Shown here piece after piece: positions 6,634 through 45,031 of a stretch of DNA of 64,000 nt. The stretch's first letter is position 1. Every line of letters starts with the position of its first letter. Under the pieces are notes generated by a model. The model made no database searches. It was not told the DNA's origin and was given only the letters and a program-made list of their open reading frames with translations. Both the position numbers and the translations under genes were made by a program. The stretch is from Entomortierella parvispora E1425 (lineage: Eukaryota > Fungi > Mortierellomycota): NCBI GenBank assembly GCA_020891255.1, contig BQFW01000005.1, positions 1,674,001 to 1,738,000 of the forward strand, given 5' to 3'.

Positions 6634-7016
6634 TGTGGGATTGAAGAGAGGGGAGAACGGGAAGGAGGGAGAGAGACGGGAGAGTAGGGATGATGAAGAG
6701 ATGATGATGACAAGCGGATGAACCTCGCTGGCAGACACGCACACGGACAGGGCACACTCTCACACAGGGGGGAAGCTACAACAGACCAGAAGGGGTGCGA
6801 AAGTCGTCTCTTTCGGTGCGCCACTGGAGGTGCCTGTCGGTGTCTGTCTGTTCGTTAATTGTGCGTGGATTTAACTTGTTTTGTTCCTTATTTCCTTGCA
6901 CATCACATGACCAGTCAAGTCAGTCAGTCAAGAACAGAGTCCCGCCCTTCTCCTCTGCGCATCTTCTACTCTGCCCCCCCCTTCACTGCATGCACCGTCT
7001 TCCTTCTCTTCTTGCA

Positions 7017-8506
7017 ATGACCATACGCACCAGACGAGCCGCCGCCGAGGCTGCTGCCACCATCACTGCTGGGATCCTCAAGCCCAGCATCTCCTTGACC
7101 TTCAAGCAGACAAAGTCTAGGTATCGACTCGACCCTTCCTCCTCCACTGCTTGACCCTGAATCTCAACTGACATCTGACGCCACCAATTCTTGATTCGTC
7201 CATTGGGCAGATCCATCACTCGGACCTTGGTGACAGTAAGTTTTTTTCTTTTCCAGGCGGTTTACTGCGCCCATACTGATCACTGACCCAAGGTGGCATG
7301 ATTTCATTCTATTGCATTTTAGAAGACTGGCACCAAAAAAGAACACCAAAAGACGTTGTTGAAGATTGAGGTATACTTACGTTCATCCCATCATCGCTCA
7401 TAAAACCTGCAACGACATCGAGCTCGGAAACTAACCTTCTCCGAGATAGACCCTAGCCGTCAGCGATAACATTGAGGAATCTTCATCCCTGAGAAAGACT
7501 GTCAGACGTCGCAAGGCCGCAACGATAACTTCAGACGATGCTGCTAAAGTTGTCACAACCACTACTGTCACCGCCGACACTGTGGTGAAAGAGACCAAGG
7601 TCAAGGCCCCCGCCACCAACCCCTGGGCCAATCGGCCTCGCCATACCCCAGACTATGCTCACGCTGCATTGGAACATCTCTGCACAGCTGATCCTGCGCT
7701 CAAGCCATTGATTGACAGGCATCCTTATTTAATCGATGCAGAACATGAGACCAACTACTTTCGGTATTGTACAGTTGCTCTATTAACAAAGAGATGGTCG
7801 TGAGACTCGGAGGAACACCTAAACTCATCGACATTCGTCCTGTCAACTATACAGAGTTCTTACAAGAACCATCATCGGACAACAGATCCATTGGAAGGCA
7901 GCACGGTCCATCATCTATAAGTTTGTCTCGTACTACTTTCCAGATGGCCAAGTCACCGTGGATTCTTTGGATGCCAATGACAAGACCTTTCCTACGCCCG
8001 AGCAGGTTCTTGCCACCTCAATGGACAGCCTTCGACAGTGTGGGTTGTCGGAACGCAAGGCCTCTTATATCCAAGATCTAGCCCGTCATTTTGCCGAAGG
8101 CAAGATCACATTTACAGATCAAGCCATGTTAAAGGCACTCACAGACCAGGAACTGGCCTCTCAATTGCTCTGTGTGCGTGGAATCGGGCAGTGGACAGTA
8201 GACATGTTTTTGATGAGCTCGCTTGAACGTTTAGATGTACTACCCACCCTGGATCTCGGGGTCCGACGAGGCATGGAAAAGCACTTTTCGAGCGAGTACA
8301 AAAATGGACGCTGGGGCATTGTTGAAGAGAGCAGTCATGGTACCAGTCCGAAATCAAAGGGCAAGGGTAAGAAGGTGAAAGCGGGTGAGATGAGCCTGGA
8401 CGATATGGAGCGGATGGCTGAGAGATGGAGACCTTACCGAAGTATTGCCTCTTGGTACATGTGGAGAAATGCTGATGCTGAAGATATTGTCACCGCCCCG
8501 GTGTAG
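7017..8506 (+). CDS. MAG1: DNA-3-methyladenine glycosylase, HhH-GPD (AlkA/Mag1) family; 5' exons tentative
   Basis: Motifs DPALKPLID, FPTPEQVLA, LRQCGLSERKASYIQDLA, LLCVRGIGQWTVDMFLM…DVLPTLDLGVRRGM and WRPYRSIASWYMW. Several GT-AG introns upstream. Confidence 0.88.
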
Positions 8507-10177
8507 AGATCGTGTCCAGTCGCTCTCCACAGAAAGATGAATCAGATTATTTTTTTTTGAAAAAACGAATGCTCACAGGGGGGGTGAAAATAAACATTCA
8601 CTGGGCGTGATAATTTCTTCTGAGCGCAGCCTCACGCCTTTTTTTTTTGGTGAAATTGAAAACAGAATAAACATCATCATACCCTTTTTACGACCACGGT
8701 TCTCCTCTTCTTTTCAATATTCTCACTCAAGGATATCCGACCTCCTTTTCCAACCCTCGGACCCTGCTACAATTGAATGAACAATGCTAAAAACCAAAAA
8801 CCGGCATTTATTTTGGACATGAAAAAGATTGCAGGAGATGATTGACAACACCACGACCCGGGGATTTTGAGGCAAAAACAAAGAATATTTAAGCCTTGAA
8901 ACCACGGGAGGCACGACGACCACGAGCCTTCTCGAACTTGCGACCCTTGCTCTGGACATAGGGCTTGGCGTGCTTGCCGGGGCCCATGCCGAAGTGCTTG
9001 ACGGCCTCACGGGTGTTCTTCTTGCCGCGGAGCAAGACAGTGTTGGCACCAGTGGGGGCACGGAGAGCGAGCTGATCAAAGGTGATGACCTCACCGCCGG
9101 CCTTCAAGATGCGGGCCTTGGCGGTCTTGGTGATGCGCAAGCAAGCGAGGGAGAGCTTGGGGACCTCGAGGAAGCGGTTATCGTCAGTGACGGTACCGAC
9201 AACAACGGCGGTCTTGCCATCCTTACCTGCCATGTTGCGGGCAACACGGGAGACGGACATGGGGGGGCGGTTGACGCGGGACATAAAGAGACGCTTCAAG
9301 ACGACCTTGTTGAAGGCATAGTCCGTGCGGCGGGCGAGGAATCTGTAGAGCTGTGGGATGAAAAGTAACAGAAAAAGACGCAACGTCGTCAGTCGTGTTG
9401 TCCTTCATAACGTCTTTTCTGTGGGCAATTGTGGGCAATTGTGGGCAATTGTGGGGTGTATCCAGGGAAACAAAGCTGTCCTGTTGTTGTCTATGCCTCT
9501 CTTTTCCCCCGTTGAATTCAAGAATTCCGCATTATCCCTGTACTCAAAAAGTGAGTCGCCCAGTGCTGTGACACTCCCCTCGGGTTGATTGGTTGATTTG
9601 TTGATGCGTGTGGGCGATGTCAAGATCAGATCAGATCACTTTGTAAATCTCTTTTTTTTCTTCCATTCGTACAGTCCTGCCTCATGCTGGCGCGTTTCAA
9701 GCAAGAGTTGCATCCTCCTTGCGCTCCCAAACGTCCGGATTCCTTTGTCTCGCAGTGTGTTTGTCATCCCTTTTTTTCCACCACTGTCTGTCTGAAAAAG
9801 AGACCTATGACCAGTCTCGTATAGTATATATCGACTTCCTGACCACGCCTCAAGCAGGATTTAAAAGGGTAACGATGTCGTAGAGTCGAACAAAAACACT
9901 CGGACGCTTTTTTCCCTAGCCATAAGTCCTGTTCCTTGAAGAGTAGCTTTTCCACTCTTTTTTTTCCTATAATTGGTTTCAAGGTGCTGTAGAAGGGGAG
10001 CTTTCCATACCTTGACGAGCAACAACAGGCAGACATCCTCAGACTTGGGAGCCTGACCGTTCTTGTTGCGAACGTGGTGCTTCTTACTGTCAATACCCTA
10101 CGATATCAAATAGATAGAGGACAAGAGATGAAAAAAGGAGTCAGAAAAAGCTGATGTTGAGGACAGAATCATAGGTT
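8498..10177 (+). repeat. Left copy of long direct duplication (pairs with 20176-21768)
   Basis: Starts CCGGTGTAGAGATCGT (includes the MAG1 stop) and ends …CATAGGTT. Colinear with the right copy apart from scattered SNPs, about 100 bp missing from the right copy near the poly-T, and GTGGGCAATT x3 vs x2. Confidence 0.95.
8889..10097 (-). pseudogene. RPL18: 5'-truncated copy of 60S ribosomal protein L18 (exons 2-3 only: 10097-10011, 9350-8889)
   Basis: Full eL18 coding sequence except the ATG exon; homology breaks inside intron 1. It differs from the right copy by I5S, R15G, Y24C, S41Y and one synonymous change. Confidence 0.8.
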
Positions 10178-10325
10178 TATTCGACATGAGTTGCCTACAG
10201 TACGTTACACTCGGCCTTCTCTCACAATGCTCACCCATGCATGTTGTTATCCCATCACTCTCGGCTCTGTTCCTTACTGGCCCGCCAAAAATCAATCCAT
10301 CGATCCATTTTTTTCCACGGTCTTT

Positions 10326-13115
10326 CTACATCGAGCCAGTCTTTCTCTTCTTGGACTTTGTAGGAGTGGCAGTTGTCACAGAGGTTTTGCAAAGAGCATC
10401 GCACAACTGTTGTTGCATTTCAAAGGATGCAGGTGCTGCAAGATGACGCCTGGAAATTTCCTGCTCGATTCGGAAGGCCAGCCTAAGACAAGACTGAATG
10501 GCCGTGCTCATCCGTCGGCCAAACTCTTTTTTTTCCAGAGGAATCAGAAATAAGTCAAATTGACATAATCGAAAAACACCTTGAAAATCCAATTGGAGTA
10601 GTTTGGTTTCATCTTTGTAGGTGCATGATCCGAAGACAGCAAGGTCTCGTGGTGGGACCGCCTCCCGACAAACCGATTTAACTTGACTTAACCAAGAATC
10701 TCTAAGCTCAAGAGCGAGCTTGAACTGATCCTGGGATTTCTTGTCAGCCTTCACATTGTGGACCTGCGATGCTTCCGCCAGGAAAATTTGGTCCTTCCCA
10801 TTGAAGGCCAAGCCATCACAGTATTGGCCAACCTCGAAGACATCAAGAAATGGATTCTTGTCATGATTTTTCCTTTCCTGAACCCCCGTAACGAGGACCT
10901 CCAGATGTCGAGATTCTATCTTGTTCATGGTAAGCGCTCCTCGAATGAATGACCAAGTAAGATCCGTAAAGCTCTCACGTTCATTCAGGTCCTTGGGAAT
11001 CTCAGAGTGGAAATCGAAGTAATGAGAGCTATGGCAGATAGATTATATGTGAATGAACATCCAATCATAGTATACATCCATCGAACAAGGGGAACACTTA
11101 CTATGCCATCACAACTGAGAACATATATTTAGCTATCGGGTCCTTCATGTCCTCGCTTTGAATTGCTCGGGTGATGTCCTCATAGTCACTGTGCTTGAAT
11201 ACCCGGTCAAATATTTCTGGAAGAGTGGGCCACTTTTCATTGATATTGGGGATCGCAGCAACCCTTCTCGCCTCTAAAAGGACATCTGAATGCAAACTCA
11301 TTGCGAAGGAAGACCCATGGGTCAAGTCTGCAATACCGTCCCGAACGAGAGAGAAAGGCCCCATATTGCCTGGTCGAAAGTCATGAAACTTTGATATCAC
11401 ATCAACACCTTGACAGATAAAGGATGTCGTCTGATTCAGAGTATTAAAGTGCACGAGACTAGTAGTGGGATCTGTAAACCTGTTAGAAACAACCGGTACC
11501 TTAAATTACTGCTCCAAGCAAAGAGTGATTCCACACACCTGGAAATTCATCGCCTTCTTCACTGGCCAGTGCATCCTCAATGAGATTGCTCAGATCGGGA
11601 AACGGAACAGGGCTGGTTCGGGAGAAATCAAACTGAGACTAAAGGAATGAAGGAGAAGGCGTGGGGTTGATAAAATGTTTGGAATGTTAATGCAGGCATG
11701 ACCGTAATCACAAATACTGTATTCACATACATTTTCCGAGTCGACAGGGGGTGTCCGGAGCCGTGATGAAGGTTCATCCAGACCATCTAAGACGTAGGTA
11801 TCTGATGAAGGGCCATATCGTTCTCTGTCTGTTGGTCGGAGTGTGATGAGAAGACTAGGTTCAGTTGCATGAACGAAAAATAAATCGATACTTGTAGAGT
11901 CTCACAAGGTACAATATCGATCTCTTTGGAAATAAATACTTACAGGATCGCTGCAATGGGGTGGGTAAGTCACCACATTTTCCTTGCTTTGTTCGAGTTC
12001 GCTCCAGGCCAGCAGCTATTAATATGTTTAGAAAACAGAGAACAAATTATCAGTGGATGTTTGTGAATGCAGGAATCAAAAGAGAACTTACAGTGTGTCA
12101 CTTCCGCATTCTCAGCCGCGGTTTCTGCCTTCTCCTTTGGGAGTTAAAGAAAGGGCGAGGGCACATGTCAAACACCATTAATACATCAAACTACTGTACC
12201 AAAACCAAGGGCTCTTTTACTAACCTCGATTCTTTGAGCCTTTGAAGAATTACGCCTAGGTTGGAGTTGAGCGGGTAACCTGCTCTTGACGCTTTGGGCA
12301 TTTCTGACTTTCCGTACTGGAATATTGACGGCCGTTACAAACGTCCTGCGAGCTACAGATGAAGCACCTTTCTCGTTTCGAGCAGTAGTCGAGGGAGAGC
12401 CCTCGGAGTCAGCATCGAGAGGGGAATGTGCTTCTATGGCATACAGTTGATACAAGAGAGGGTGGAGGCTAATCACATGTCAGGTGCAGGAATAACCACA
12501 CAACACCGCAACACCTCTGGTTTCATTTACCAGCTGTTTTTTCCAGAGGCTTGTATCTTGCTTGGTATTCAATGTTCATATCGGCCTTCTTGCTCTTCGC
12601 ACCTTGTATGGATGGAGAATGGAAATGTCAACACCAATAGCATGAAATTTGTTATTCCAATCCTCTTTACGTAGCTGTACTTCGAATTTACCTGTAAGAG
12701 GTAGGGGCGTCGGCATGGAGGATGGGAGTGTGATATCGTCTGAGCTCTGGATAACCTCATCTTCCTCCTCATCTTCTTTCTCATCTTGGAAGTGTTGCTT
12801 AAAGATGTTTCGAGACTGTCGATGACCGACCTCCACTGAGTCCCCGGCAGCCCTCATCGCAACAACACCCGCCTTGGCCAGGGTGGCACGCTTTTCCCAG
12901 AAAACAGCAGCCCGGTTGGCAATAAAAGACTCTAGGTTCCTAGAGAGACGTTGACGGCGGGCTTGACGGATTTTGGGATTGCTGATGAGCGCCAGATATT
13001 CTGTCTCTGCTGTTTGTCTGTCGCTATATTTGAATTTTTGCGCAAAAGACGCTATAGAGACGTGTTCCTTAGCAGACTGCTTGGTTGCCCATGCGACATG
13101 TTCCCGATTATCCAT
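10326..13115 (-). CDS. Multi-exon PD-(D/E)xK (REase-like) nuclease of the type found as Crinkler C-terminal domains in Mucoromycota
   Basis: C-terminal motif YCDGLAFNGKDQIFLAEASQ…KKSQDQFKLALELRDSW (D…E…D-x-x-K-L pattern), preceded by EIPKDLNERESFTDLTWSFIRGAL. Upstream coding pieces at 11101-11454 and 12576-13115. Exon structure was not fully resolved. Confidence 0.6.
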
Positions 13116-13258
13116 GATGTGAGAATGCGCCTTCAAATGGTACTATCCGGATTGCTGAACGAAAAGAGGAGGCTCTAATTGGTACTATAAGCAAATGAGA
13201 AAAGCAAAGACAGAGAGAGAGCAAGGCGAGTGGTGTGTGAAGAAACGGCATCATCGGA

Positions 13259-14046
13259 CATCGAAAGTCCCAGTGCATTTGAGGCGATCTAAGCGTGACG
13301 ATTGCTGACCACCAGGCCGCACTCCAACTGCACGAGCGACCCAACGTACTTGTAAATCGCAGGTGTCGAGAAGGGAATGCATTGGCAAGGAGTTCTAGCA
13401 AAACTTGCGAACATCAAACATCGAAAGTCCCAGGGCATGTGAAGCGATCTAGGCGTAACGATGGCTGACCACCAGGCCGCACTCCAACTGCACGAGCGAC
13501 CCAACGTGCTTGTAAATCGCAGGTGTCGAGAAGGCAATGCATTGGCAAGGTGTTGTAGCAAAACTTGCAAACATCAAACATCGAAAGTCCCAGGGCATGT
13601 GAAGCGATCTAGGCGTAACGATGGCTGACCACCAGGCCGCACTCCAACTGCACGAGCGACCCAACGTGCTTGTAAATCGCAGGTGTCGAGAAGGCAATAC
13701 GTATTGGCAAGGTGTTGTAGCAAAACTTGCAAACATCAAACATCGAAAGTCCCAGGGCATGTGAAGCGATCTAGGCGTAACGATGGCTGACCACCAGGCC
13801 GCACTCCAACTGCACGAGCGACCCAACGTGCTTGTAAATCGCAGGTGTCGAGAAGGCAATACGTATTGGCAAGGTGTTGTAGCAAAACTTGCAAACATCA
13901 AACATCGAAAGTCCCAGGGCATGTGAAGCGATCTAGGCGTAACGATGGCTGACCACCAGGCCGCACTCCAACTGCACGAGCGACCCAACGTGCTTGTAAA
14001 TCGCAGGTGTCGAGAAGGCAATGCATTGGCAAGGCGTTGTTCAGCA
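13259..14046. repeat. Tandem array of five 160/162-bp units (last one partial)
   Basis: TCGAAAGTCC recurs at 13261, 13421, 13581, 13743 and 13905. Units 2-5 are nearly identical; unit 1 differs from unit 2 at 11 of 160 positions. Confidence 0.97.
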
Positions 14047-14110
14047 AGGTAGAAATAAAACAGAATCAATTACCTTAGAATGCTTGGAAAATGAGATCCA
14101 GCGCCGCAAG

Positions 14111-14203
14111 GATACAAAGAAGAGGGTGTTGGTGATACAAAGGAGAGGGTGTTGATGATACAAAGGACAGGGTGTATCGTGTTGATGATACAAAGGAGAG
14201 GGT
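14111..14203. repeat. Short 23-bp minisatellite (GAGAGGGTGTTGATGATACAAAG-like)
   Basis: GATACAAAG at 14111, 14134, 14157 and 14187. Confidence 0.85.
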
Positions 14204-14875
14204 CAGAGGTGGTGATGAAGGCGTGGGATTGAATCTATGGAAGTGTGGCACAATTTAACAGCACACAGTGCATTCGTCAAAAAATGCATCACGTGCTTTG
14301 TCAGGATTAAAAATCCACTATGGTGCACGTCACCTAGTCGCGACAAAAACGTGGAAATCCCTATACAGAAGCAAGCGAGGCCTTTTGATCGTAAAAGGCC
14401 CCGTAGTTTGATTGATGCCTTTCACGTCTTCAGGGCTACGATGCTATTTTCACCTACAGCCTTGAAGGCAACTTTGCTATTGAGAGAGATAGCCGTGTTT
14501 AAGGGTACGTATTTTTTTGTAACCTATGGCAGTCTACTTAAGGGTGTATTGTATTGTGCCTTCCTGGCCATCAACAGCCCAACGGCCAGGGCCACCAACG
14601 CGTTTTTGTTTCGTGTCCTCGGCGTTGATTCTTTTCTTCTCCTCGCTGTCCCTCTCACTGTTGACTCAACCCTTACCACAACACAGACACCTCTGCACTC
14701 CATCAGCTTACTCGTCTGTCACCACTCAACTTCCCCCGTCAACTCATAACATCGGTATTGCATCTCGAACTCACTGCAAGCACCTTTTTTTCCCTTGGGC
14801 TGCAATAATCTCTGCAGCTTCTCTGACCTTGTCTTTCTTGTTTTCCTTTTCATGACAACCTTTATTTACTGTAGT

Positions 14876-17800
14876 ATGGGTGTCGTCAAAGCCTTCGAGA
14901 CGCTCAAAGACTGTGAGGCAGTCAAGAGAGTCGACGTCAAGTCCCTTGGTGGGTGCCACATTGATGGCTCAGCCGTCTCTTACATGAGACTCAAATCGAC
15001 GGAAGGACGTCTCCTCCTACGCGCTCTGAAGACCCAAGCAAAGAAAGGAACCATTGCTACCACGGCCTCCCTGCTCCCGCTTGGTCGATGGGTCGGAGGA
15101 CTATGGTCCTTTCCTGTCCCTGTCTCGGATTATGGGTCAATCCACTTGGGTATGGCTCCTCTCCACCCGAGCACAGCATCAACCTCTACCAACAATCCAC
15201 CGATCAACAACGCTGCCCTACAGCTGTCCCTGTTGCCATCCACATTGCCTTCTTTTGGCCCAGTCTCGTCTTTGCAGGAGTCAGCCTCAACATCGGATAC
15301 ACTTCCAGACTTCTCTGACCTGCATAATGCACGTATGGAAGCTTGGCCGCTCCTTGCCAGATCCATGGACCGCATGTTTAATACACATTACAACAAGTCG
15401 GCAGACTTTATCCACTACGATGGCGGACCCACCGTGCAGAAAGCCTTTGCACATGATCGACGACTGAAAGCCAATGAAAAGGCATCGATCAAGATGTCTG
15501 AGCTTCTTGCCTCTACTGACGTACGACTTTCTGTGATGGAGTCAAAGTCAACTCTTTCGAACAAACAATTGTCTCGGCTTAAAAGGCACCTCAACTGTGT
15601 TGTTTTCCCCCATTGGATGAAATGCCGTGGGGTGGATCCTCGGGCTACCGTCTTTGTCTCTCGTGAACTTCACACGTCCCATGGATGGAAGTCCCATATA
15701 TGCCATGGCCAATTTGACATATGTGCAGGAAAATTGGCCAAAAAGGACCCAAACATCACCGTTGTCACCACTGACAGTGACCTGCTATTCAGTGGAGTCA
15801 AAGAGTGTGTCCGGATTCAGCTCAAGGGCACCAGCTTTTACTCATACCCGATTGAGGGCATCTTAGCCCACTGTAAGCTCGACTCCCAAGAGCAATGGGT
15901 GGCAGCGGCGGTCGTTAGTCTCAATGACTATGATCCTAGTGTTGGGAGGACATCGTTTAAGACTGCAATCAAGGAGATGGAAAAACTCCGCAAGACTTTT
16001 TCCCGCACCGCTCGCACCAATATCAAAGTCAGGGACTATGTCGAGGCGTTTTGTAAAGGCAAGCATGTCAACATCAGCTCGGTCGAACGGTCCTTGGAGA
16101 GTTTCATCGATTTGCTTGAGACCCCTATTGAGCAGCACAATCCGCACAACGATGTACTCGATGACTCGATACGTAGGATCGTGTACCGAGTGGAGACGCT
16201 GGCACAACGGTAAGAATGCAATACAGAACTGACCTTTTTGCCGGATATGGCACTCATTAAATCAGTCATATTCCCTTCGCCACTGCACTAGCTGTCGCTC
16301 GTCATGCAGGCGTCCAACAAGCAGCGAGCCAAGCGCATCGTTGGCCACGTTGGAGGTTGACGACCTTCGGCCTGTATCTTTGTCAAAGCGAGGAAAGAGG
16401 GAACGTCGTCCAGGGTAAGTTCGACGAGCCAGAGACTAGCTGGATCGAAAGGCTTGGCACAAAGCTGTCAAACTCTCTTTATTTCTGCAGATTTCGTGGA
16501 TACATCTCTGGTCATGTCTTTCGTCAAAAGGCCTTTGCCCCTGTCTTCACTCATCCAGACAAAAATACAGACCCCATCGGTTGCAAGAACATGACCATTG
16601 GTCGACCTGTTCCTGGAGTTCTGGTCTTGGTGGCCGATGAAGAAGATGACTTTCCGGACGATGACGATCCCAAGAGTCCTATGCCTGCGCCAGTGCCTGC
16701 GCCCGTGCCTTCTCCCGCGTCAGCTTCTAAGCCTACTCTCAAGCCTACCCCGGAGAAAACCACAGCGCTTACTACCGGAAAAGCATCCAAAAAGAGGGCA
16801 AGAGCAGGTATCGTTTTTGCTCCTGCCAAGAGGCGTAGCCGGGACGCAGAAATGCAACAGCGGGAGGACGCAAAGTCAAAGGCAAATGTTCAGCAAGGAG
16901 AGGAAGTGCAGGCAGAGGACGAAAAAAGCGACGAATGACAAACCCCACCAATATGATTGGCGATGTTGTCGCGTCTCGATGCCAAATGGCCGCTATGAGG
17001 CCAGGACGACTAGAATCGTGTCTACGATACAGTCTCAAGAACTCATTCCCAATGCTCTCTAAAGAGCAGCACGAGCTTCTATTGAGGCACATCACCGGCG
17101 TCATTCGCACGTTGGCCAGTGTCCACTCTTATCTGTTGAGAGAGGGCCTCTTGGTGACAGAGCTTTACATTGCCAGCGTCTTCAAGGAATTCCCAGTCGT
17201 GGATGGAGACCTCGGGCAAGATCACGCCAGAGAGAGAAGTGACTTGTTTAACAACATCCTGCTGAAGAAACATCGCGACCCCTTCTTTCAACGGCTTCTG
17301 AAGCGACTGCTCAAGTGGGACTGGGATTCCAACAACACAAATGCCACAAGTCAAGGCTCCATGGCCGCCGACAAAATTTTTGATGATTATTTGAAGCTCA
17401 CCAAAGCCAGCGCAAAGAAGCACCTTTCAAAAAAGAGGACCAGGACATGGACATTTGCGATATAACATTTGTTGAACAGTGCGCAAGAACACTCTCGGAT
17501 ATGGTGGGGGAACACGTATTCAAGCACACCCTGGAGCTGAAATCGAGAGTAAGTCATCATCGAACAAAACTATCGTTGCTCGAAACTCTGGCAAATTGAC
17601 CTTTTCGTTTAATAACGTGTTCATTTCGATTGCTGGTGGTCCTAGGTTATCCTTCATAACCCTTCTTGGTATTCATCGGCCTGTGGAAAGAACTTTCTCG
17701 AATCCGTCAACGAGAAAGGAGTCTCATTGATGCACGACCGGCTGAGTCTACATGCAATAATGACCTGGTTGATTCTGGCTGGAGCCCAGATCAAGATTCT

Positions 17801-20007
17801 GCCCAAGTCGGATTCACGGATGGTTTTTTTGCATTAGCGGAGCGCCAGCTGGTGAGCTGCATCTTGAAAGGCATCCGAGTGGCTAATCCAATGTATCGCA
17901 CCCTCAACAATGTGTTCGGGAATAAGGGAGGGGCGGAAAAAAACACACAGGACGAGGTCGGGAGATTGTCTTTTTTCCTCTTCCTCAACGGCCGCAACAC
18001 ATGTTATCGACGAGGGACCAACGTACTTTGGGCCAAAGACTACTCAGGCACTTCGTCCTCGAACCCTCTACCGACTTTACAGCAGTTACAGCTCCGAGAT
18101 ATGATGTTCTTCGAGTCTGACGCAATTGCAGAATTCGAGCAAGCTTCCGAGGGTTTGGGTACCAATGCCAACGCTCCTGGGTATGAAGACCGCAAAAAAA
18201 GACTCAAGGATGTTATTGGTAAAGGGATCCATAGCTCAGAGCATTATCAGCACCTGATTGACATTGCGGCTCCCAAAGTCAAGCGGCCAAAATACGTCCT
18301 AACAGGAGACATATCCACCAACGGCTACGACCTGCGTGTTATGGCGTACAGTTGACTGAGAAGAAGCGTAGAGCTCTGCCAGCGGCTTCTTCTACTCCGA
18401 ACGTTGCTGACCCTTCGACATCGTCTCTGTTGGCAATTGAAGTCGGTGCGAATGCCTCTAGCGAATTGTTCACCAATCCTGACCTCATCTCAAGAACACC
18501 TGCTCTGGATCTACCTCCATCCGTGGAAGGGCAGTCATCGAGCGAAATGCTGCCGTCCGTGTCAATGCCAGATGTGGCTCCAACGGCTGCGACTGCCTGG
18601 TCAGCAGCCCCTTCCCTTGAATGGTGGCCGTACGTTGCTGAAGCGTTCAACTCCCAAGAGAAAATCAACAAGCTCTACCGAGACAATGCTGGACCTCAGA
18701 CCGGTATTCGGGTCCTCTGTCTAGACCCCGGGGTTGCATGTACAGCCACGGGCACACTTGTCCACTCCAATTATCCAAAAGTCACCATCAACCTGACTAT
18801 CCCTCGCGGCTCCCGAGATATCATCGACAATAGATATCGAATGGAACAGAGTGCTTGTAAGATTAAGGGGGGTATTCCGGATATCGAGGCAAGGCTAGTG
18901 GCATTGAAGCCTGTCGAGGCGGGGCTGGTGCTTGTTAAGCCTACTGACGTCAAGACAACCGATCCCAACAACTTGGACCAAGGTATGAGGGACGTGCCAG
19001 TCGCTGCCAGTGTGAAAAAGGACACAGATTCCTTGAACACAGCGATGAAAGCAGCGGTGCATGAATATGAAGAAACTGTCAAAGCCCATATCATCAGCCA
19101 AGCAAAAGAGTCCTCCGCCCTCCGCAACTTCTACGGTATCAAGAAGTTCAAGAGGGACAAGTACGACTACCGAGAAGCCATTCGCCATGATCTCGACAAG
19201 TCCTCGACGGCTATTCTCAATATGAAACACTGCGTTCCTCATCCCCAAGCAACAGATGCCGATCTGTTGTCTATAATCTCTGCTGTGCAAGAGGATTTCG
19301 AAGGAGCCAGGCATACAGTCTCAAAGCTTCCGAGGGGCAAGCAGTTCGACTGGAGCTCATATTTTAGAGTCATGGATAATGCAAACCGGTTGCAGGGGGA
19401 TGAACGCAGCACGTTCTTGGCATCCGCTGACGCCACTAAGGATCTAGTCAAAACAGCGCAGTCCTTGTACAAGGTTGGCTACATGAGCAAGAATCAACTC
19501 TCGGATGAGGTTCGTCGAGAGTTCCTAGAATCACCACTCATTATCGGAGTTGGCGACGGCGACTATCGCAAGTGGAAGGGGCAGAGTCGGGATGCGGACA
19601 ACTGATAAAAAACTTGATCAGACAGGTAAATACGTGTTGTCGCTCTTGTGTTGTGTAAAACTATAATGTCGATTCTAACCAAAAAGTTTCTATGGTATGA
19701 TTAGAAGCGGGACCTCGTGAAGGATCTTGCCAGGGGCAACACGAAGTCTCCTGTTATCAAACTGGTCAAAATTCCCGAATTCAGGACCTCAGTCTTTTGC
19801 TGCTCGTGTTTATTCCGCGGAAAAGAGGAAGGCCGATCCATCGTTTGTAAAGAGTGCGACAAGAGTCGCGATCGAGACCATAATTCCGCAACCAACATGT
19901 CGAACGCAGTCCTAAACTTACTACGCGGAGAAGAGTGGCCTGCTCCACTTGATTTTGCAAAAGCAAAGTTTGTCGACAAGTTTTCAACAACGACGCTTGA
20001 AGTATGA
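14876..20007 (+). CDS. XPG/FEN1-like PIN nuclease fused to Fanzor/TnpB-like RuvC endonuclease (5 exons; five apparent 1-nt frameshifts in this sequence)
   Basis: N-terminal motifs: MGVVKAFETL…HIDG, HYDGGPTVQKAFAHDRR, GQFD, VTTDSDLL, VVSLNDYDPSVG. C-terminal motifs: YVLTGDISTNGYDL, RuvC-I VLCLDPG (D 18724), IIGVGDG, RuvC-II KIPEFRTS (E 19777), CxxC…CxxC, RuvC-III RDRDHNSATNM (D 19876). In-phase GT-AG introns at 16210-16291, 16415-16490, 17549-17645 and 19626-19704. Confidence 0.8.
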
Positions 20008-20175
20008 CTTCAAGCCTGGGTATCCCCCTTCGGTGTAAGTCTACAAGCCATTCTGCAAAATCTGTCTTCAATTTCTGTTTACTAATTAAGGGCGACTTTT
20101 GTTGCGACTACAGTAGGTGACAGACACTGTATTCGAAGTTTTTATCTGCCTTTACTCTCGAATCTTTTTCTTCTT
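19995..20175 (+). ncRNA. Candidate Fanzor omegaRNA scaffold (3' end of gene to element boundary)
   Basis: Perfect 9-bp hairpin GCTTGAAGT-ATG-ACTTCAAGC over the stop codon, plus GCGAC-TTTT-GTTGC and ACAG-ACA-CTGT hairpins. The position matches known TnpB/Fanzor omegaRNAs. No expression data. Confidence 0.35.
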
Positions 20176-21768
20176 CCGGTGTAGAGATCGTATCCAGTCG
20201 CTCTCCACAAAAGGAAGAATCAGATTTTTTTTTTTTTTTTTTTTTTTGGTGAAATTGAAAACAGAATAAACATCCATCATACCCTTTTTACGACCACGGC
20301 TCTCCTCCTCTTCTCAATATTCTCACTGAAGGACATCCGACCTCCTTTTCCAACCTTCGGACCCTGCTGCAATTGAATGAACAATGCTAAAAACCAAAAA
20401 CCGGCATTTATTTTGGACATGAAAAAGATTGCAGGAGATGATTGACAACACCACGACCCGGGGATTTTGAGGCAAAAACAAAGAATATTTAAGCCTTGAA
20501 ACCACGGGAGGCACGACGACCACGAGCCTTCTCGAACTTGCGACCCTTGCTCTGGACATAGGGCTTGGCGTGCTTGCCGGGGCCCATGCCGAAGTGCTTG
20601 ACGGCCTCACGGGTGTTCTTCTTGCCGCGGAGCAAGACAGTGTTGGCACCAGTGGGGGCACGGAGAGCGAGCTGATCAAAGGTGATGACCTCACCGCCGG
20701 CCTTCAAGATGCGGGCCTTGGCGGTCTTGGTGATGCGCAAGCAAGCGAGGGAGAGCTTGGGGACCTCGAGGAAGCGGTTATCGTCAGTGACGGTACCGAC
20801 AACAACGGCGGTCTTGCCATCCTTACCGGCCATGTTGCGGGCAACACGGGAGACGGACATGGGGGGGCGGTTGACGCGGGACATAAAGAGACGCTTCAAG
20901 ACGACCTTGTTGAAGGCAGAGTCCGTGCGGCGGGCGAGGAATCTGTAGAGCTGTGGGATGAAAAGTAACAGAAAAAGACGCAACGTCGTCAGTCGTGTTG
21001 TCCTTCATAACGTCTTTTCTGTGGGCAATTGTGGGCAATTGTGGGGTGTATCCAGGGAAACAAAGCTGTCCTGTTGTTGTCTATGCCTCTCTTTTCCCCC
21101 GTTGAATTCAAGAATTCCGCATTATCCCTGTACTCAAAAAGTGAGTCGCCCAGTGCTGTGACACTCCCCTCGGGTTGATTGGTTGATTTGTTGATGCGTG
21201 TGGGCGATGTCAAGATCAGATCAGATCACTTTGTAAATCTCTTTTTTTTCTTCCATTCGTACAGTCCTGCCTCATGCTGGCGCGTTTCAAGCAAGAGTTG
21301 CATCCTCCTTGCGCTCCCAAACGTCCGGATTCCTTTGTCTCGCAGTGTGTTTGTCATCCCTTTTTTTCCACCACTGTCTGTCTGAAAAAGAGACCTATGA
21401 CCAGTCTCGTATAGTATATATCGACTTCCTGACCACGCCTCAAGCAGGATTTAAAAGGGTAACGATGTCGTAGAGTCGAACAAAAACACTCGGACGCTTT
21501 TTTCCCTAGCCCATAAGTCCTGTTCCTTGAAGAGTAGCTTTTCCACTCTTTTTTTTCCTATAATTGGTTTCAAGGTGCTGTAGAAGGGGAGCTTTCCATA
21601 CCTTGACGAGCAACAACAGGTAGACATCCTCAGACTTGGGAGCCTGACGGTTCTTGTTGCGAACGTGGTGCTTCTTAATGTCAATACCCTACGATATCAA
21701 ATAGATGGAGGACAAGAGATGAAAAAAGGAGTCAGAAAAAGCTGATGTTGAGGACAGGATCATAGGTT
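20176..21768 (+). repeat. Right copy of long direct duplication (pairs with 8498-10177)
   Basis: Same boundary sequences as the left copy; the RPL18 exon-3 offset is exactly 11600 bp. Confidence 0.95.
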
Positions 21769-22175
21769 CATGAAAGTGGCGGAAAAAAGTCGTCCATGGT
21801 GGGAAAGAGATGTGATTTTCCATGAATGAATCTCTGTCCATGGTGAATCATAGTCCTCCTGTAATCCCAATAGCGATGAAATAGACAGATAGGTGCTGCC
21901 TTTTTCTCCTCCTGGGACCAATGGGTGATCAGAGGCCATTTGATGATGGTGGGCCCATTAGATTAAGTGAATTCATCCATGTCCCAAGATTTTTTTTTGT
22001 GCACAATGTCGTCAAAACTGTCAAGAGGTCGGGTTTAACCCAACCGGTGATGCGCAAGATCCTGTTCCTGCATGTTGGACGATAGGTGATGTGCTCCATG
22101 AGGATGCCGATAGATGGATCGATGGATGGTTTTCCTGAAGCGATGGATGCTGGGATGCCCATGACTGCTAACCAT
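20489..22175 (-). CDS. RPL18: 60S ribosomal protein L18 (eL18), complete: ATG exon 22175-22173, exon 2 21688-21602, exon 3 20950-20489
   Basis: CAAAAATG|GTTAGC first exon. Translation [30 protein letters not shown]|[24 protein letters not shown]…[11 protein letters not shown]. Confidence 0.95.
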
Positions 22176-39689: not shown

Positions 39690-40195
39690 TATGACTGACA
39701 ATCAACTGGCTGTTTCGTTCATGGTGATTCATTGCCCGTCTCTGGCTTCATGACCAGTCATCAACTGACTCTCTGTTCTGTCTTGTTGCCGAGGAATCAT
39801 CCCCCTTTTCTGTCAAGGCATCTCCTCATGATACTATCGATGACCTCAAAAACCTCATCAAGTTGAAGAAGACACCACGCTTTGATGGATTTGCTGCCGA
39901 TGAGCTCACTCTGTGGCAAGTGACCATTCCCATCGACGATAACCGTTTTCCTGGGATGCGTTTTCCTGCTTCATTGGACCCTGAAAAAAAAACACCCGGG
40001 CTCTCAAGCGCTTCTAGTCTTGGAAAAAAGCGGCTGAAGGTGACGAATAAGCTCTCAACGCTTTTTGTAAAGAACGCTTCCGAATATTCATGCGGGCAAC
40101 ATCCTCAATGTCACTATATAGTCTCGGCATCTTCAAGGTCTCACCAGAAGCTTCCGAGGCCATTTTCAGGCAAATCCCAGTTGCGTTTCAGTTGA
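39690..40195 (+). pseudogene. Crinkler (CRN) N-terminal ubiquitin-like domain relic
   Basis: FCLVAEESSPFSVKASPHDTIDDLKNLIKLKKTPRFDGFAADELTLWQVTIP is out of frame with the upstream ATG. Close paralog of 43729. Confidence 0.7.
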
Positions 40196-40399: not shown

Positions 40400-42259
40400 T
40401 CGTGGATCTCACTTCTGTTTTTTTGTGTGGATTTCATCGCTGGCGTGATCCAGGCCAAACCTAGTTTCAATTCACTCAACTGCCTTGATCTCTTTCAAAA
40501 CAGGAGACACTGCTACAGCTTCGTGAAACAATGCTGGATATGTTATTCCGTCAACATTCTGACACACGGTTGCAGCCCTCTCGCCATTAAGAGGGATTCG
40601 TGGCCATACATGAGACACAATGAATGTATCTCTGTAGTGATAGCAGCCTTCCCGGTGCAGGAGTCGACCCTCCCTAGGAGGGGACCACTTGCCCGAGCTG
40701 ACAGAGCACTCCAGGGCAAATAGAAAAACACTCCAGAATGTGCAACAAACAAAAACATGAAGTTATTCATTTATAATACATTCATAACCTTAAATAAAGG
40801 CGTTACAAGCAAGTACTCACTAGTTATAAACTACGCTTTCCAAATAAGCAACAATAGGGTCGCTGTGGTCTTCTTTTCGCAGTGCAGCAACGACGCTCCT
40901 GTATGAATCCGACGGATCAGGATCAGACGGAAAACGGAGGCGAGCAAGGATGGGGATAAGTGTCGGCCACTGCTCCTCCACATTTGGATCCGATGCAGGG
41001 CATGCATTTGCTAACTTGCGAAGATCTCGGGACATTTCCTTCGTAAAATCCGAACCAGTAGTGATATCCGCAACATCGTCCAGTGCCAACGAGAACTGAG
41101 ACTGGGGTTTGGTTTTAAATGCGTCGAACCTCGCCAAGAAGTCCAGATCACCACATTTCCATTCAACCTTTTGATTCAGTCGCTTCAGGGCGGCCACTTC
41201 ATAGAGGAATAAAAGAATCAATTTCACAGTTAGCCTCAATCTGTTATTTAGTTCACGCTGTCACTCCTCACATCCATGCACAACCAGGCCGAAGCTCTTG
41301 TCAAAAAATCAGATGTTTGCATATATTCCCTCGCGTGACAGACTCCATGTTCAAAAATACCACGACAAAAATGATCTCATACTTACAATACTCTTCTTGG
41401 CGTTGTGGAGATGTCAAGGCTATTGGTACGCAGCATTGAATGCACGTCAATAAATCTGTGGGGTATACGCTTTTACATCGCATCAACACAGCTTACCTTC
41501 TGGCTTCTCTGGTGAGGACTTTTCCGACGGCATCTTTTCCGGCACCTTCTCTGGTGTCTTGGGTGCTGGCCTCTTCAGCGAGAGAGGCTTATTAGCAGAC
41601 CGCGTCCCAAATGAGGAGGGCTGATCTTCTGCATCCTCGCCAGAAACTTTCTGCCTCTTACCACCTGTTGAAAAAAAAAAAAAAAAAAAAAAAAAAAAGA
41701 AGTTAAAAAGAGACGTTGATTAACTCATAATGATTAAAACGGTCTTACCCACGCTTGGATAGGCCGTACAATTCATTGACCCGAGGCCATCTTTGGAAGA
41801 TGCGGAGGCTTCCGCTACAAGTAATGTAGAATTAGTTTGCAATGTAATTAAAGTATTAAACATTCCTAACAAGGTGAATCCATTTTACTCACCCTGGCGT
41901 TTTTCCAAACGCGTTGTCAACTGTTGATCTGTCACATGAAGTTGTATTTTTGAAGATTCAAGCGCATCCTGTTCCCGGCCGACTGTAACTCGAACACGGT
42001 AATATTCGTCGATGTCATCTTGGGTGAGTGCTGATGCGGCAACAGCGGTCCTCCGCGCGACTTCATGAGAACTCTGTTTGAGGTCTGACATCCATCGAGC
42101 CCACTCATGGATCAGAACTGCGGATTGATCACGTGGCAAGGCGCGGTGATGAATGTAATCGCCAGGTTTGAAGCTCAGGTCCCCTCCTTGTGAGAGAAAA
42201 TAACCTGCTCCCTTCCGCCGTTCATTAATGCCGTCGTTCCAGCCTCCTGAGGTAGCCAT
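40400..42259 (-). pseudogene. Second REase-like family member, degenerate at the 3' end
   Basis: VADITTGSDF…NVEEQWPTL…EDHSDPIVAYLESVVYN aligns with IADLTHGSSF…NINEKWPTL…EDMKDPIAKYMFSVVMA at 11101-11454. Downstream frames are broken. Confidence 0.55.
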
Positions 42260-42907
42260 TTCCGCTCAGATCTAGAAAATACAGTCAAAAAGGTGTTTTA
42301 GGCAAATTACAATGCATCCTCAAAGCGCCCAGACTATTTAAAACAACACATAGACATGTTGAGTTCTCTCTTGGCCAGTCGCAGTCAGTGGCTGCCAAGC
42401 AGGAGGCTCTGATGAAGAGCATGCCGCAGGGCCGGCAAAGACCACGAAAAACTAACCCAAACAATGCAGATCTGAGGCCCTTCGTCTGGTTGTAAACCAA
42501 AGGAAGCCAGAAGACAAGGGAGGGCAGGCAGGATGAGAACAAATCTCCCTCTTTGCCAGTCGCGACTGTGATGTGCAAATGAACGCATGGACAGGATCAG
42601 TGGCTGCCAAGTAGGAGGCTCTGATGAAGAGCATGCCACAGGGCCGGCAAAGACCGCGAAAACTAACCCAAACAATGCAGATCTGAGGCCCTTCGTCTGG
42701 TTGTAAACCAAAGGAAGCCAGAAGACAAGGGAGGGCAGGCAGGAATGAGGGGGAGGGAGAGAACCAAACGATATCAGTTACCTGTTGCGAGTGCCCGGCT
42801 AATGTAGTCTCGAAGGAAGTAAACGAACAGAAAGGAAGTGCCGTAGAGCTGTGGCCAATGACAAGATTATGAGTTGGGCGGTGCTTTGTGAATGCAATGA
42901 TAAAGGG
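42204..42907. repeat. Direct repeat, copy 1 (pairs with 44587-45031); contains an internal ~150-bp duplication with 212-bp period
   Basis: Colinear from CCTGCTCCCTTCCGCCG to …GCAATGAT(T)AAAGGG. Internal CAGTGGCTGCCAAG at 42386 and 42598. Confidence 0.9.
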
Positions 42908-43728
42908 TGATTGTGATTCAAGTATGTTGAAAGGAGCGAGGAAGGAAGGTGCAGTAGTTGCTTGGTCTTGGCAGGCATGGTCTCTTTATTTCCCTGCAGA
43001 GTAGGAATTAACGGCATCAGCATCCCCCATAGTCTACTATCAGCGTGTCCAGTATCTACTCATCTCTCCCCAAGGTCCTCCCTGCTTCCCCCTCTCTCTA
43101 CTCAGATGTATCTGATAAGTCATCGCGTGTCCTGCTCTTCTTACTCCAACTTGGCCTGACCTTCTCTCCCTCGTGGTTGATCCACTGGTTTTGGTTGTTC
43201 TCGTCATCTTTTTTCTTCTGGTTACAATCTCTTTACCAGCTGGTTTTCAGAAGGAAGGAGATACTTCGAGTCGTCTTCCGTTGGAACGTCGCTGTCCTCA
43301 AGTTCTCTCTTACCCTCGCCATTACCAGACTCGCCCTCAAATTTCTCTCTATCACCTTCAGCAACCTTGAAGACCACTACTCAGAACTCCTCCACTACTA
43401 CAGTCACTACATCCTTGTCCGCCTCCACAATCTCTTTGACCACGAGTGACCTAGTCAGTACCGCCATCTCAGCTTCATCAACAACAACCACCGCTGTTCC
43501 CTCTTACCCAGAGTCTATGTCCGAGTCTCAGTCTACTACTACGATCCCCTTCTCAACTATTTCCACTACAACCGCCCCTTTCTTGACCTTCACGGCAACA
43601 ACACTTCTATCACCCTTCAAACCCCTGACTCTCTCTTCACGCTATCCCCCACGATGAGTGAAGACATCACAGCTGATACCAGCCAGCAACCTGAGTTGCC
43701 CCCTCATCATCTGATTCTTCGCTAGTCT

Positions 43729-44438
43729 ATGACCGAGAACCTCCTGACCCTGTTCTGTCTCATCGATGGCGAGGCGTCCCCCTTCTCTGTCAAGGCGTCT
43801 CCTCATGACACGGTCGATGATCTCAAGAACTTGATCAAGACCAAGAAGACGCCCCGCTTGGATGCACTCGCCGCTGATGAGCTCACTTTATGGCGCGTTT
43901 CCCTTCCCATCGACGATGCTGGGATCCCAGCTCCACTTGGCTCTGACTTTAAGAAGAAGAGACTCAAGGTCAGCATCAAGCTCTCTAGCGTTTTCACCAC
44001 AGAATTGAGCGAGGACACGATTCACGTTCTTGTTCAGCGTCCTTCGCCTGGTAAATATGACCGCCTTCTTTTGACTTTACTTGTATACTGTTCGACCGTC
44101 CAAGGTTTCTAATCTCATTGAACCTTCTAAACAAACTAGACAAAGACCAGAGCCCCGTCACCTCTGGAAAAGTATACGTCGTCCACTCGTATAAAGACTA
44201 CCGGAAAGAAGTCTTTTGCGAGATCCTTGATGTATACGGCGACTACGAAGATGCCGTCGCGTTTGCAGAGACCATCTGCGTTCCGGAAGGGAGCCATGAA
44301 GATACCAAGCATGAATATGTGTACTCCAAAGGCTGTTTGTTTGACAGGAGACTGGCAGGTTGGGGTGATGAACGTGTTGCGATTAGTGAGGCTTGTCATT
44401 ACACACGCCAGTACCTGCAGGCCATGCCGACCGAGTAA
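43729..44438 (+). CDS. Crinkler-type ubiquitin-like N-terminal domain joined to a small unknown C-terminal domain (intron ~44051-44139)
   Basis: MTENLLTLFCLIDGEASPFSVK…ADELTLWRVSLP…TIHVLVQRPSP is the canonical CRN N-terminus; in-phase splice into DKDQSPVTSGKVYVVHSY…QAMPTE. Confidence 0.75.
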
Positions 44439-44586
44439 ACTGGAGTCCAGTTCAGAATGTTGCACACATCACGCCTGAGGACTTCGTTCTTCGTAGATTC
44501 GACAATACGGCTTTAGTGCCCACGTCTTGCGAGGCAAGAAGTGATGTTTATTCGATTGACGTCAGTTGTTATAATAGTGAAATGAG

Positions 44587-45031
44587 CCTGCTCCCTTCCG
44601 CCGATCATTAATGCCATCGTTCCAGCTTCCTGAGGTAGCCATTTCCGCTCAGATCTAGGAAATACAGTCAAAAAGGTGTTTTAGGCAAATTACAATGCAT
44701 CCTCAAAGCGCCCAGACTATTTAAAACAACACATAGACATGTGTTGAGTTCTCTCTTGGCCAGTCGCAGTCAGTGGCTGCCAAGCAGGAGGCTCTGAGCT
44801 CTGATGAAGAGCATGCCACAGGGCCGGCAAAGACCATGAAAACTAACCCAAACAGTGAGGGCAGGCAGGAACGAGGGAGAGGGAGAGAATCAAACGACAT
44901 CAGTTACCTGTTGCGAGTGCCGGCTGCTGTAGTCTCGAAGGAAGTAAACGAACAAAGGAAGTGCCATAGAGCTGCGGCCAATGACAAGATTATGAGCTGG
45001 GCGGTGCTTTGTGAAGGCAATGATTAAAGGG
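44587..45031. repeat. Direct repeat, copy 2 (pairs with 42204-42907)
   Basis: Lacks the internal duplication of copy 1 and abuts the 3' end of the second Fanzor relic. Confidence 0.9.

What the first reader, a model, noticed from the sequence alone, without database searches (positions are those of the whole stretch)
8498..21768. 10-kb insert flanked by a 1.6-1.7 kb duplication that preserves an essential ribosomal-protein gene
Seen: the layout is MAG1 stop-[D1]-insert-[D2]-RPL18 exon 1. One breakpoint is in RPL18 intron 1, the other 9 bp before the end of MAG1, so both flanking genes stay intact. Established: DDE transposon target duplications are only a few bp, while integrative elements that restore their target gene carry part of it. 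Inference: either a circular element carrying the RPL18 3' region integrated by homologous crossover, or repair after widely staggered cleavage (plausibly by the insert's own nucleases) made a kilobase-scale target duplication.
Basis: partly seen in the sequence, partly recalled or inferred. Interest (0 to 1): 0.75.

Follow-up and report, generated by a model that had tools for sequence, protein, structure and literature searches.

The report
Fungal duplication beside nuclease-carrying Fanzor transposon
A soil fungus carries two copies of a 1.6-kb gene piece around a 10-kb insert, likely left by a one-off DNA repair accident, and the insert holds a broken jumping gene whose RNA-guided cutter (Fanzor) is fused to a domain predicted to be a second DNA-trimming nuclease.

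Summary
The duplication is in the sequence: D1 8498-10177 and D2 20176-21768, 98% alike, with short-read depth about twice single copy in one run and single copy in two other studies' runs. The insert is not one element. Bases 14321-20129 are a multi-copy transposon bounded by TA; other copies end at the same place with unlike flanks, and a relative carries a likely Tc1/mariner transposase. It encodes a Fanzor1 fused to a FEN1-fold domain, frameshifted here but spliced from sister copies. The other 4.2 kb holds a Mortierellaceae gene and tandem repeats. Neither duplication breakpoint is a transposon end (44 bp and 4.1 kb away), and no other copy showed RPL18. Most likely a one-off template-switch duplication, later part-homogenised by gene conversion. 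A role for the transposon's right end stays open: it is close, and a 7-bp echo links it to the far junction. Neither insert junction was seen bridged in reads. The FEN1-Fanzor fusion, tabulated in a published supplement but not described in the texts I searched, is the more interesting part.

The parts
7823..8506 (+). Last exon of a host HhH-GPD DNA glycosylase (MAG1-like); its last 9 bp begin D1
   Evidence: PF00730 E 1.5e-17; its end joins D in run X2 (loose end at the D start)
8498..10177 (+). D1, left copy of the duplication: intergenic DNA, RPL18 exons 3 and 2, part of intron 1; no start codon or promoter, likely a pseudogene
   Evidence: 4 of 5 coding differences from D2 change the residue
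10178..10189 (+). Left junction: TATTCGA (same as 20130-20136) followed by CATGA (same as 21769-21773)
10326..13115 (-). Multi-exon gene of a Mortierellaceae family without Pfam match; restriction-endonuclease-like fold is a lead only
   Evidence: Atlas structure row 4 (HSDR_N cluster, TM 0.30 by query, 0.71 by target, under the naming bar)
13258..14040 (.). 162-bp tandem repeat, 4.9 copies, 97% alike; shorter 23/30-bp repeats follow at 14111-14218
14319..14320 (.). Left TA target duplication of the transposon
   Evidence: another copy in X1 and a short contig in X2 begin at 14318; relative L001 has the same 13 bases at 40-52
14321..20129 (+). 5809-bp non-autonomous transposon, likely Tc1/mariner type, no transposase in this copy
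14876..16210 (+). Exon encoding a FEN1/XPG-fold (PIN-like) nuclease domain at the N-terminus of the Fanzor
   Evidence: model pLDDT 81.8; Foldseek top hits human FEN1 E 5.5e-8, also Exo1, Rad2, XPG
14876..20007 (+). FEN1-fold + Fanzor1 fusion gene; frameshifted in this copy at about 16921, 17400, 17801, 18349 and 19588
   Evidence: tblastn with 1506-1705-aa sister proteins; single-base differences from other copies and splice joints; PF07282 E 1.6e-8
20130..20131 (.). Right TA target duplication; element ends CACTG then TA
   Evidence: 2 contigs of X1 run on with unlike flanks behind 20131; four flanks in L001, L003, L004, L006
20132..20175 (+). 44-bp spacer of unknown origin; would be the guide region of this copy's RNA
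   Evidence: no match in the window beyond short chance words or in 8 loci
20176..21768 (+). D2, right copy; completes the intact RPL18 gene (minus strand)
   Evidence: spliced exon 2-3 contigs in X2 bear the D2 letter
22173..22175 (-). Inferred RPL18 exon 1 start codon, followed by a GT donor

Best explanation
The two 1.6-kb copies likely come from a one-off repair or replication accident in which copying left RPL18 intron 1, ran through a stretch of repeat-rich DNA from elsewhere and rejoined 1.7 kb upstream, while the Fanzor transposon inside the insert is a separate TA-bounded element whose ends are not the breakpoints. Shown: the layout, the element's ends, unlike flanks at other copies, and differences between D1 and D2 confined to their ends. 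Inferred: template switching as the route; a donor locus for the 4.2-kb remainder; the transposon was either already in the donor or jumped in soon after; a later gene-conversion tract of about 1.25 kb evened out the middle of the repeats; D1 then decayed as a promoterless pseudogene while D2 stayed in use. The element itself most likely moves by cut-and-paste with a transposase supplied from elsewhere, its Fanzor1 would cut emptied sites, and the fused FEN1-fold domain would trim the cut ends to favour repair from a sister copy (inferred from the domains only).
For: Element ends at 14321 and 20129 with TA on both sides; breakpoints 4.1 kb and 44 bp away. X1: 2 contigs leave at 20131 and 1 at 14318 with unlike letters; X2: two internally deleted copies end in the same terminus with other flanks. 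Relatives: 4 of 8 loci reach the right end, each with a different flank; 0 of 8 match RPL18, the glycosylase, D, the left 4.1 kb or the spacer. The left gene's record stands alone in its 90% cluster while the Fanzor has 3 other annotated copies in its cluster. D1/D2 substitutions: 12 of 192 left, 2 of 1250 middle, 5 of 148 right; 0 of 200,000 uniform simulations gave so long a clean stretch. A short insertion plus a 5-base match at the left junction fits template switching (established for microhomology-mediated repair, recalled). Element copy differs from collapsed sister copies by 124 of 4897 bases, 2.5%, the same order as the decay at the ends of D.
Against: The donor of the 4.2-kb remainder was not found (no genome held), so microhomology at the junctions cannot be judged. 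Only 7 of 171 TA sites of that remainder lie within 46 bp of an end (4%), and the 7 bases after the element's right end recur exactly at the far junction (6 matches in the window, 5.2 expected): both hint that the element's end took part. Two other copies share 11-17 bases left of the left TA (X2 at 14308, X3 at 14302), which blurs the left end. The diverged-ends pattern fits ends-in integration of a circle equally well.
Confidence: 0.5

Rival explanations
1. The element's own nucleases made the duplication: a Fanzor-guided break, widened by the fused FEN1-fold nuclease, was repaired by one-ended copying that began just past the element's right end, ran through it into 4.1 kb of donor flank and left a long target duplication. 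This would extend the variable long duplications reported for algal Fanzor elements.
For: Right breakpoint 44 bp from the element end (7 of 171 TA sites so close); 7-bp echo; similar age of element decay and D decay; intact sister genes are spliced in X2; PMC3627910 section 8 reports duplications of 7-19 bp and up to 443 bp with captured 5' DNA at CRe-1,2,3, and section 12 variable 5' regions at MCi-2.
Against: In those published cases the duplication flanks the element; here 44 foreign bases intervene. Other copies begin and end at TA. Neither breakpoint in the host resembles the spacer beyond a few bases (by eye). No activity was tested.
Confidence: 0.2
2. A circle carrying the RPL18 3' piece plus the insert integrated by a homologous crossover, with gap repair making the middle of the two copies identical.
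For: Diverged ends and identical middle are what ends-in integration gives (mechanism recalled).
Against: No other copy seen carries RPL18 or the spacer; no recombinase in the insert; making the circle needs the same two non-homologous junctions first, so it adds a step.
Confidence: 0.12
3. The 4.2-kb remainder with its nuclease-like gene is the mobile unit, and genes of this kind spread by a process that leaves long direct repeats; the Fanzor element is a later passenger.
For: A second direct-repeat pair (42193-42911 and 44576-45035) surrounds a Crinkler-domain gene in the same window; the left gene has three more relatives in the window and 79-87% identical relatives in other genera.
Against: No transposase or recombinase in it; its record is a single-member cluster; the second repeat pair lies in a nest of decayed elements and may be two copies of a dispersed repeat.
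Confidence: 0.08
4. Assembly artefact: two haplotypes or a collapsed repeat mis-joined through the insert.
For: Neither insert junction was seen bridged in the rows shown (155 piece rows and 23 loose-end rows hidden); X1 may be the assembly's own sample.
Against: In X1 D has depth 139 (intron 2) and 159 (233.9 minus the paralog's 74.8 at 20501) against 64-75 for single-copy contigs, while X3 has 119.6 against 107-120 and X6 72-80 per contig (the tool warns that depth is no copy number). D1 has 4 residue changes and no start, as a pseudogene would. X1 holds 0.82 of the words of 7000-16999, more than is possible without the left 4.1 kb.
Confidence: 0.05

Closest known systems
Fanzor1 in Tc1/mariner elements (PGv-1, PUl-1, PUl-4; PMC3627910 section 7)
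   Same: TA duplication; Fanzor1 with or without a Mariner-like transposase upstream (L001 has one, the window copy lacks it).
   Different: Inverted repeats here are weak and differ in the first two bases; the Fanzor is about 1600 aa with an N-terminal FEN1-fold domain, not named in the passages read.
CRe-1,2,3 of Chlamydomonas and MCi-2 of Mucor (PMC3627910 sections 8, 12)
   Same: Fanzor1 elements with a fixed 3' end, variable or captured 5' DNA and target duplications longer than usual (7-19 bp, up to 443 bp; 11-12 bp).
   Different: Those duplications flank the element; here D2 starts 44 bp after the end, is 1.6 kb, and the element has its own TA duplication. CRe elements are Helitron2-derived.
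Fanzor1 branch FZ1 of PMC10432273, supplementary file 3
   Same: Sister protein P0027 (93% identical to the window's gene) is a row marked FZ1.
   Different: Listed as hypothetical protein; the main text has 0 hits for XPG, fusion, fused or mariner.
Duplication with templated insertion by microhomology-mediated template switching (FoSTeS/MMBIR; recalled)
   Same: Direct duplication with foreign DNA between the copies and a short insertion plus microhomology at a junction.
   Different: Donor not found; not an element-encoded process.
Integrative elements that restore their target gene (recalled)
   Same: Both flanking genes stay whole.
   Different: No recombinase; no shared attachment core; other copies do not carry the host gene piece.

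Membership tests
Fanzor1 | TnpB-like RuvC with C-terminal zinc-finger (TNB) region | tested here: met
   PF07282 35 bits, cut-off 26.3; D, E, D motifs LCLDPG, PEFRTS, DRDHN in sister proteins (motif roles recalled); best structural rows SpuFz Z 7.4, rmsd 6.0, 156 aligned, on a weak model
Fanzor1 | Placement in the Fanzor1 clade | tested here: met
   Sister copy P0027 is marked FZ1 in PMC10432273 file 3; no tree of my own
Fanzor1 | Structured guide RNA at the element's right end | tested here: inconclusive
   19990-20131 folds at z -1.06; no Rfam match; little conservation with relatives
Fanzor1 | RNA-guided DNA cleavage | not testable with these tools
   needs an assay; the window copy is frameshifted
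Tc1/mariner (IS630-like) transposon | TA target duplication | tested here: met
   TA at 14319-14320 and 20130-20131; other copies diverge there; L001 43-44 and 8766-8767
Tc1/mariner (IS630-like) transposon | Terminal inverted repeats | tested here: inconclusive
   window ends score 29 (shuffles 95th 28, max 30); L001 right end against window left end 33 (95th 29, max 34) with 13 identical bases at the mapped end; L001's own ends score 17
Tc1/mariner (IS630-like) transposon | DDE transposase in autonomous members | tested here: inconclusive
   L001 upstream ORFs: DDE_3 E 0.0093 and HTH_33 E 0.0028, both under cut-off; absent from the window copy
FEN1/XPG 5' nuclease superfamily | PIN-like FEN1 fold | tested here: met
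   Foldseek 85 matches with E up to 0.001, top rows FEN1, Exo1, Rad2, XPG; sequence searches found none
FEN1/XPG 5' nuclease superfamily | Full set of acidic active-site residues | tested here: inconclusive
   D281, D300, D351 and Q279 are at least 90% conserved in 21 sequences; Q279 stands where FEN1 has a glutamate (numbering recalled), so activity may differ
Integrative element that restores its target gene | Recombinase and target-gene piece carried by all copies | tested here: not met
   no recombinase in the insert; flanks shown for other copies lack the spacer, and 0 of 8 related loci match RPL18
Fanzor elements with long variable target duplications (CRe-1,2,3 type) | Duplication flanks the element's 3' end directly | tested here: not met
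   D2 starts 44 bp after the right TA; a 7-bp repeat does abut it
Fanzor elements with long variable target duplications (CRe-1,2,3 type) | Long duplications recur at many copies | not testable with these tools
   no genome held; loose ends give 30 bases

The most novel reading that the evidence does not exclude
Mortierellaceae Tc1/mariner elements encode a natural Fanzor1-FEN1 fusion that cuts by RNA guidance and resects its own break, driving one-ended copying that can carry kilobases of flank and leave kilobase target duplications; this locus is such a footprint.
Probability: 0.17. Interest if true: 0.78.

Novelty: new variant of a known kind. Interest (0 to 1): 0.38.

Why it matters
As a one-off duplication the locus is ordinary structural variation. 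The element is worth more: a multi-copy, spliced Fanzor1 with a built-in FEN1-fold domain offers a direct test of what Fanzors do for cut-and-paste transposons, which already leave a break and so should gain little from a second nuclease (PMC13565253 section 20). If the domain trims the guided break, it is a natural cut-and-resect editor, and it could explain the long variable duplications noted at Fanzor elements in 2013.

Tried and rejected
No genome held. Rfam: 0 matches. Earlier findings: 3 look-ups, none. No relative of the Fanzor in viral or prokaryote contigs, nor of the left gene in viral contigs. Sequence search of solved structures: nothing meaningful for either domain; Foldseek on the RuvC model gave no E under 0.001. 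No RNA holder was listed by the run search; X2 is read as RNA only from its splice joints. Papers: 0 hits for Fanzor+Mortierella, Fanzor+Mucoromycota, Fanzor+XPG; 3 hits for three of Fanzor/XPG/PIN domain/fungal, none with Fanzor; 5 hits for Fanzor+flap endonuclease, 4 listed, none on this by title or abstract start. The paper on transposon origins of Crinkler proteins was not held. Rejected: the 10 kb as one element (ends map inside it); RIP-like mutation (both directions occur); alternative transposition (breakpoints are not element ends). Not excluded: unequal crossover between two copies of the 4.2-kb remainder; Crypton affinity of the left end (it starts TATGG, named for CryptonS in PMC13565253 section 20), which the upstream DDE-like ORF of L001 argues against.
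Full report
Observation. Self-comparison of the window gives a direct repeat, 8639-10180 against 20238-21771 at 98.3%, with a further 61-bp block at 8498/20176. A global alignment sets D1 = 8498-10177 and D2 = 20176-21768, with 19 substitutions, 80 bp missing from D2 and small indels. D begins 9 bp before the end of an HhH-GPD glycosylase ORF and holds RPL18 exons 2 and 3; the right breakpoint lies in intron 1, with an inferred ATG exon at 22173-22175. Proteins that NCBI names from Entomortierella parvispora match the window's Fanzor exons at 100% (P0024, P0026), so the host is a Mortierellaceae fungus.

Is it real? One read lay succeeded, on 14225-21010, with four runs kept as contigs (three samples, X1 = X2, which may be the assembly's own sample). 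In X1, single-copy contigs have depth 64-75; D has 139 in intron 2, and at 20501 the total 233.9 splits into 74.8 for a second RPL18 gene and 159 for D. In X3 D has 119.6 against 107-120, and X6 has 72-80 per contig. The tool warns that depth is no copy number; read within one run it suggests two copies of D in X1 and one in the other two studies' runs. X3's RPL18 contig runs 11 kb leftwards with no listed piece on the element, which fits an empty allele but does not show it. The glycosylase-D junction appears as a loose end in X2. Neither insert junction was seen bridged: 155 piece rows and 23 loose-end rows were hidden, and the left junction lay outside the stretch. X1 holds 0.82 of the words of 7000-16999, X3 0.06.

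History of the two copies. Substitutions number 12 of 192 columns at the left end, 2 of 1250 in the middle and 5 of 148 at the right end (boundaries chosen after looking; 0 of 200,000 uniform simulations gave so long a clean stretch). I read this as an older duplication with a later conversion tract; ends-in integration would look the same. Four of 5 coding differences change the residue, D1 has no start, and spliced exon 2-3 contigs in X2 bear the D2 letter (the paralog could also supply them). I could not polarise the differences.

The insert is composite. The right part encodes one long gene. Sister proteins of 1506-1708 aa align across 14876-20004; there are 3 other records in the window gene's 90% cluster and 6 in a second cluster about 50% alike. 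The window copy differs from other copies by single bases at five places that break the frame, and X2 shows those copies spliced: 4 of 5 joints are GT..AG, in two overlapping contigs that run from the first domain to the last (X2 is labelled DNA? and I infer RNA). The C-terminus hits PF07282, a weak model ranks S. punctatus Fanzor first (Z 7.4, rmsd 6.0, 156 aligned), and sister P0027 is marked FZ1 in supplementary file 3 of PMC10432273. The N-terminal 445 residues fold confidently and match FEN1, Exo1, Rad2 and XPG; a conserved glutamine stands at one acidic site (FEN1 numbering recalled). Relatives are named from five more Mortierellaceae species.

Ends of the element. A metagenome scan gave 8 loci, six of them one near-identical family. 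Four reach the right end, GGTGACnnnCACTG-TA, each with a different flank; the window has that motif ending at 20131. In X1 two contigs leave at 20131 and one at 14318 with unlike letters; X2 has two internally deleted copies with the same terminus and other flanks. Against a sharp left end, two copies share 11-17 more bases (X2 14308, X3 14302). L001 starts with the same 13 bases as 14316-14328, then has ORFs with weak DDE_3 and HTH_33 hits, then the fusion gene; being a short-read contig of a repeat it may be chimeric. Inverted repeats are weak. So the element is 14321-20129 with a TA duplication, likely Tc1/mariner type, as known for Fanzor1 (PMC3627910 section 7). None of the 8 loci matches RPL18, the glycosylase, D, the left 4.1 kb or the spacer.

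The remainder, 4187 bp, holds a minus-strand gene with 9 relatives among 810 candidates, no Pfam match for a full-length relative and only a lead towards a restriction-endonuclease fold, plus a 162-bp tandem array and the 44-bp spacer. Its annotated record, an automatic fusion with D1's RPL18 exons, is alone in its cluster, so it does not appear to travel with the other Fanzor copies.

Junctions. After D1 come TATTCGA, then CATGA; the first equals the 7 bases from the element's right TA, the second equals the 5 bases that follow D2. TATTCGA occurs 6 times in the window, 5.2 expected, so this pairing is unlikely by chance, though noticed after the fact. Seven of 171 TA sites of the remainder lie within 46 bp of an end. 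The element copy is 2.5% from its collapsed sisters (124 of 4897 bases; 7 of the 8 listed X1 pieces, the window-identical one left out), the same order as the decay at the ends of D.

Mechanism. Best reading (0.5): one template-switch event duplicated D and inserted foreign DNA, with the transposon already in the donor or arriving soon after; conversion later evened out the middle. Both outer genes stay whole by geometry. Rival (0.2): the element's nucleases drove one-ended copying, extending the duplications of up to 443 bp reported at algal Fanzor elements (PMC3627910 section 8). Lesser rivals: a one-off circle, mobility of the remainder (a second repeat pair surrounds a Crinkler-domain gene at 42193-45035), and mis-assembly. 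For the element, cut-and-paste with Fanzor-aided restoration is the published model (PMC13565253 section 20); resection by the FEN1-fold domain is my inference.

Literature seen. PMC3627910: passages and sections 7, 8, 12. PMC10432273: passages and supplement searches (file 2 unreadable). PMC10530073 and PMC10711439: passages and supplement searches. PMC13565253: passages and section 20. Others: search listings only. XPG has 0 hits in the main texts of the first four and FEN1 0 in the fifth; searches found no paper on the fusion. The sequences themselves are tabulated, several with XPG-like starts by eye. Subscription papers, Repbase and bioRxiv supplements were not seen and may describe it.

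Verdict. Real duplication, likely one-off; ordinary TA-bounded element; a domain fusion that is catalogued but seemingly undescribed. New variant of a known kind, interest 0.38.

Noticed in passing
window 42193-45035: Second direct-repeat pair (42193-42911 and 44576-45035, 92.6% over the first 283 columns, with indels) around a Crinkler N-terminal-domain gene at 43726-44438 (PF20147 E 1.7e-23); a smaller repeat-insert-repeat layout.
   Followed up: partly
window 48261-52265 (-): Crypton-like tyrosine-recombinase gene, NDC10_II and GCR1_C hits.
   Followed up: partly
window 45665-46143 (-): Decayed piece that matches the C-terminal part of P0041 (E 3e-17) and resembles, by eye, Fanzor rows in a supplement: likely a second, unrelated Fanzor remnant.
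   Followed up: partly
window 40829-41197, 54002-54575, 62548-63205: Three more broken relatives of the insert's left gene; the family is 79-87% identical across Mortierellaceae genera, which hints at mobility.
   Followed up: partly
window 14318-14474 (run X2): A short derivative joins the element's left end straight to its right terminus, at high depth: likely a multi-copy miniature element.
   Followed up: no
window 20487-20501 (runs X1, X2, X3): A second RPL18 gene with a different 3' flank exists in this species.
   Followed up: partly
window 8892-13115 (-): The public annotation (P0040, 687 aa) fuses the left gene to D1's RPL18 exons; probably a prediction artefact, not tested with RNA.
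   Followed up: no
window 14263-14318: Bases left of the TA resemble L007's terminus (score 24, shuffles 95th 26, not significant) and 11-17 of them are shared by two other copies: a target preference or an older element end.
   Followed up: partly
window 44549-44555: A third plus-strand TATTCGA lies 27 bp before the right copy of the second repeat pair; probably chance.
   Followed up: no
L001 1-8793: Apparently complete autonomous relative: TA, transposase-like ORFs, FEN1-Fanzor gene, TA; its flanks form a short inverted repeat around the target.
   Followed up: partly
window 39728-40192: Another Crinkler N-terminal domain, broken downstream (PF20147 E 2.4e-17).
   Followed up: no
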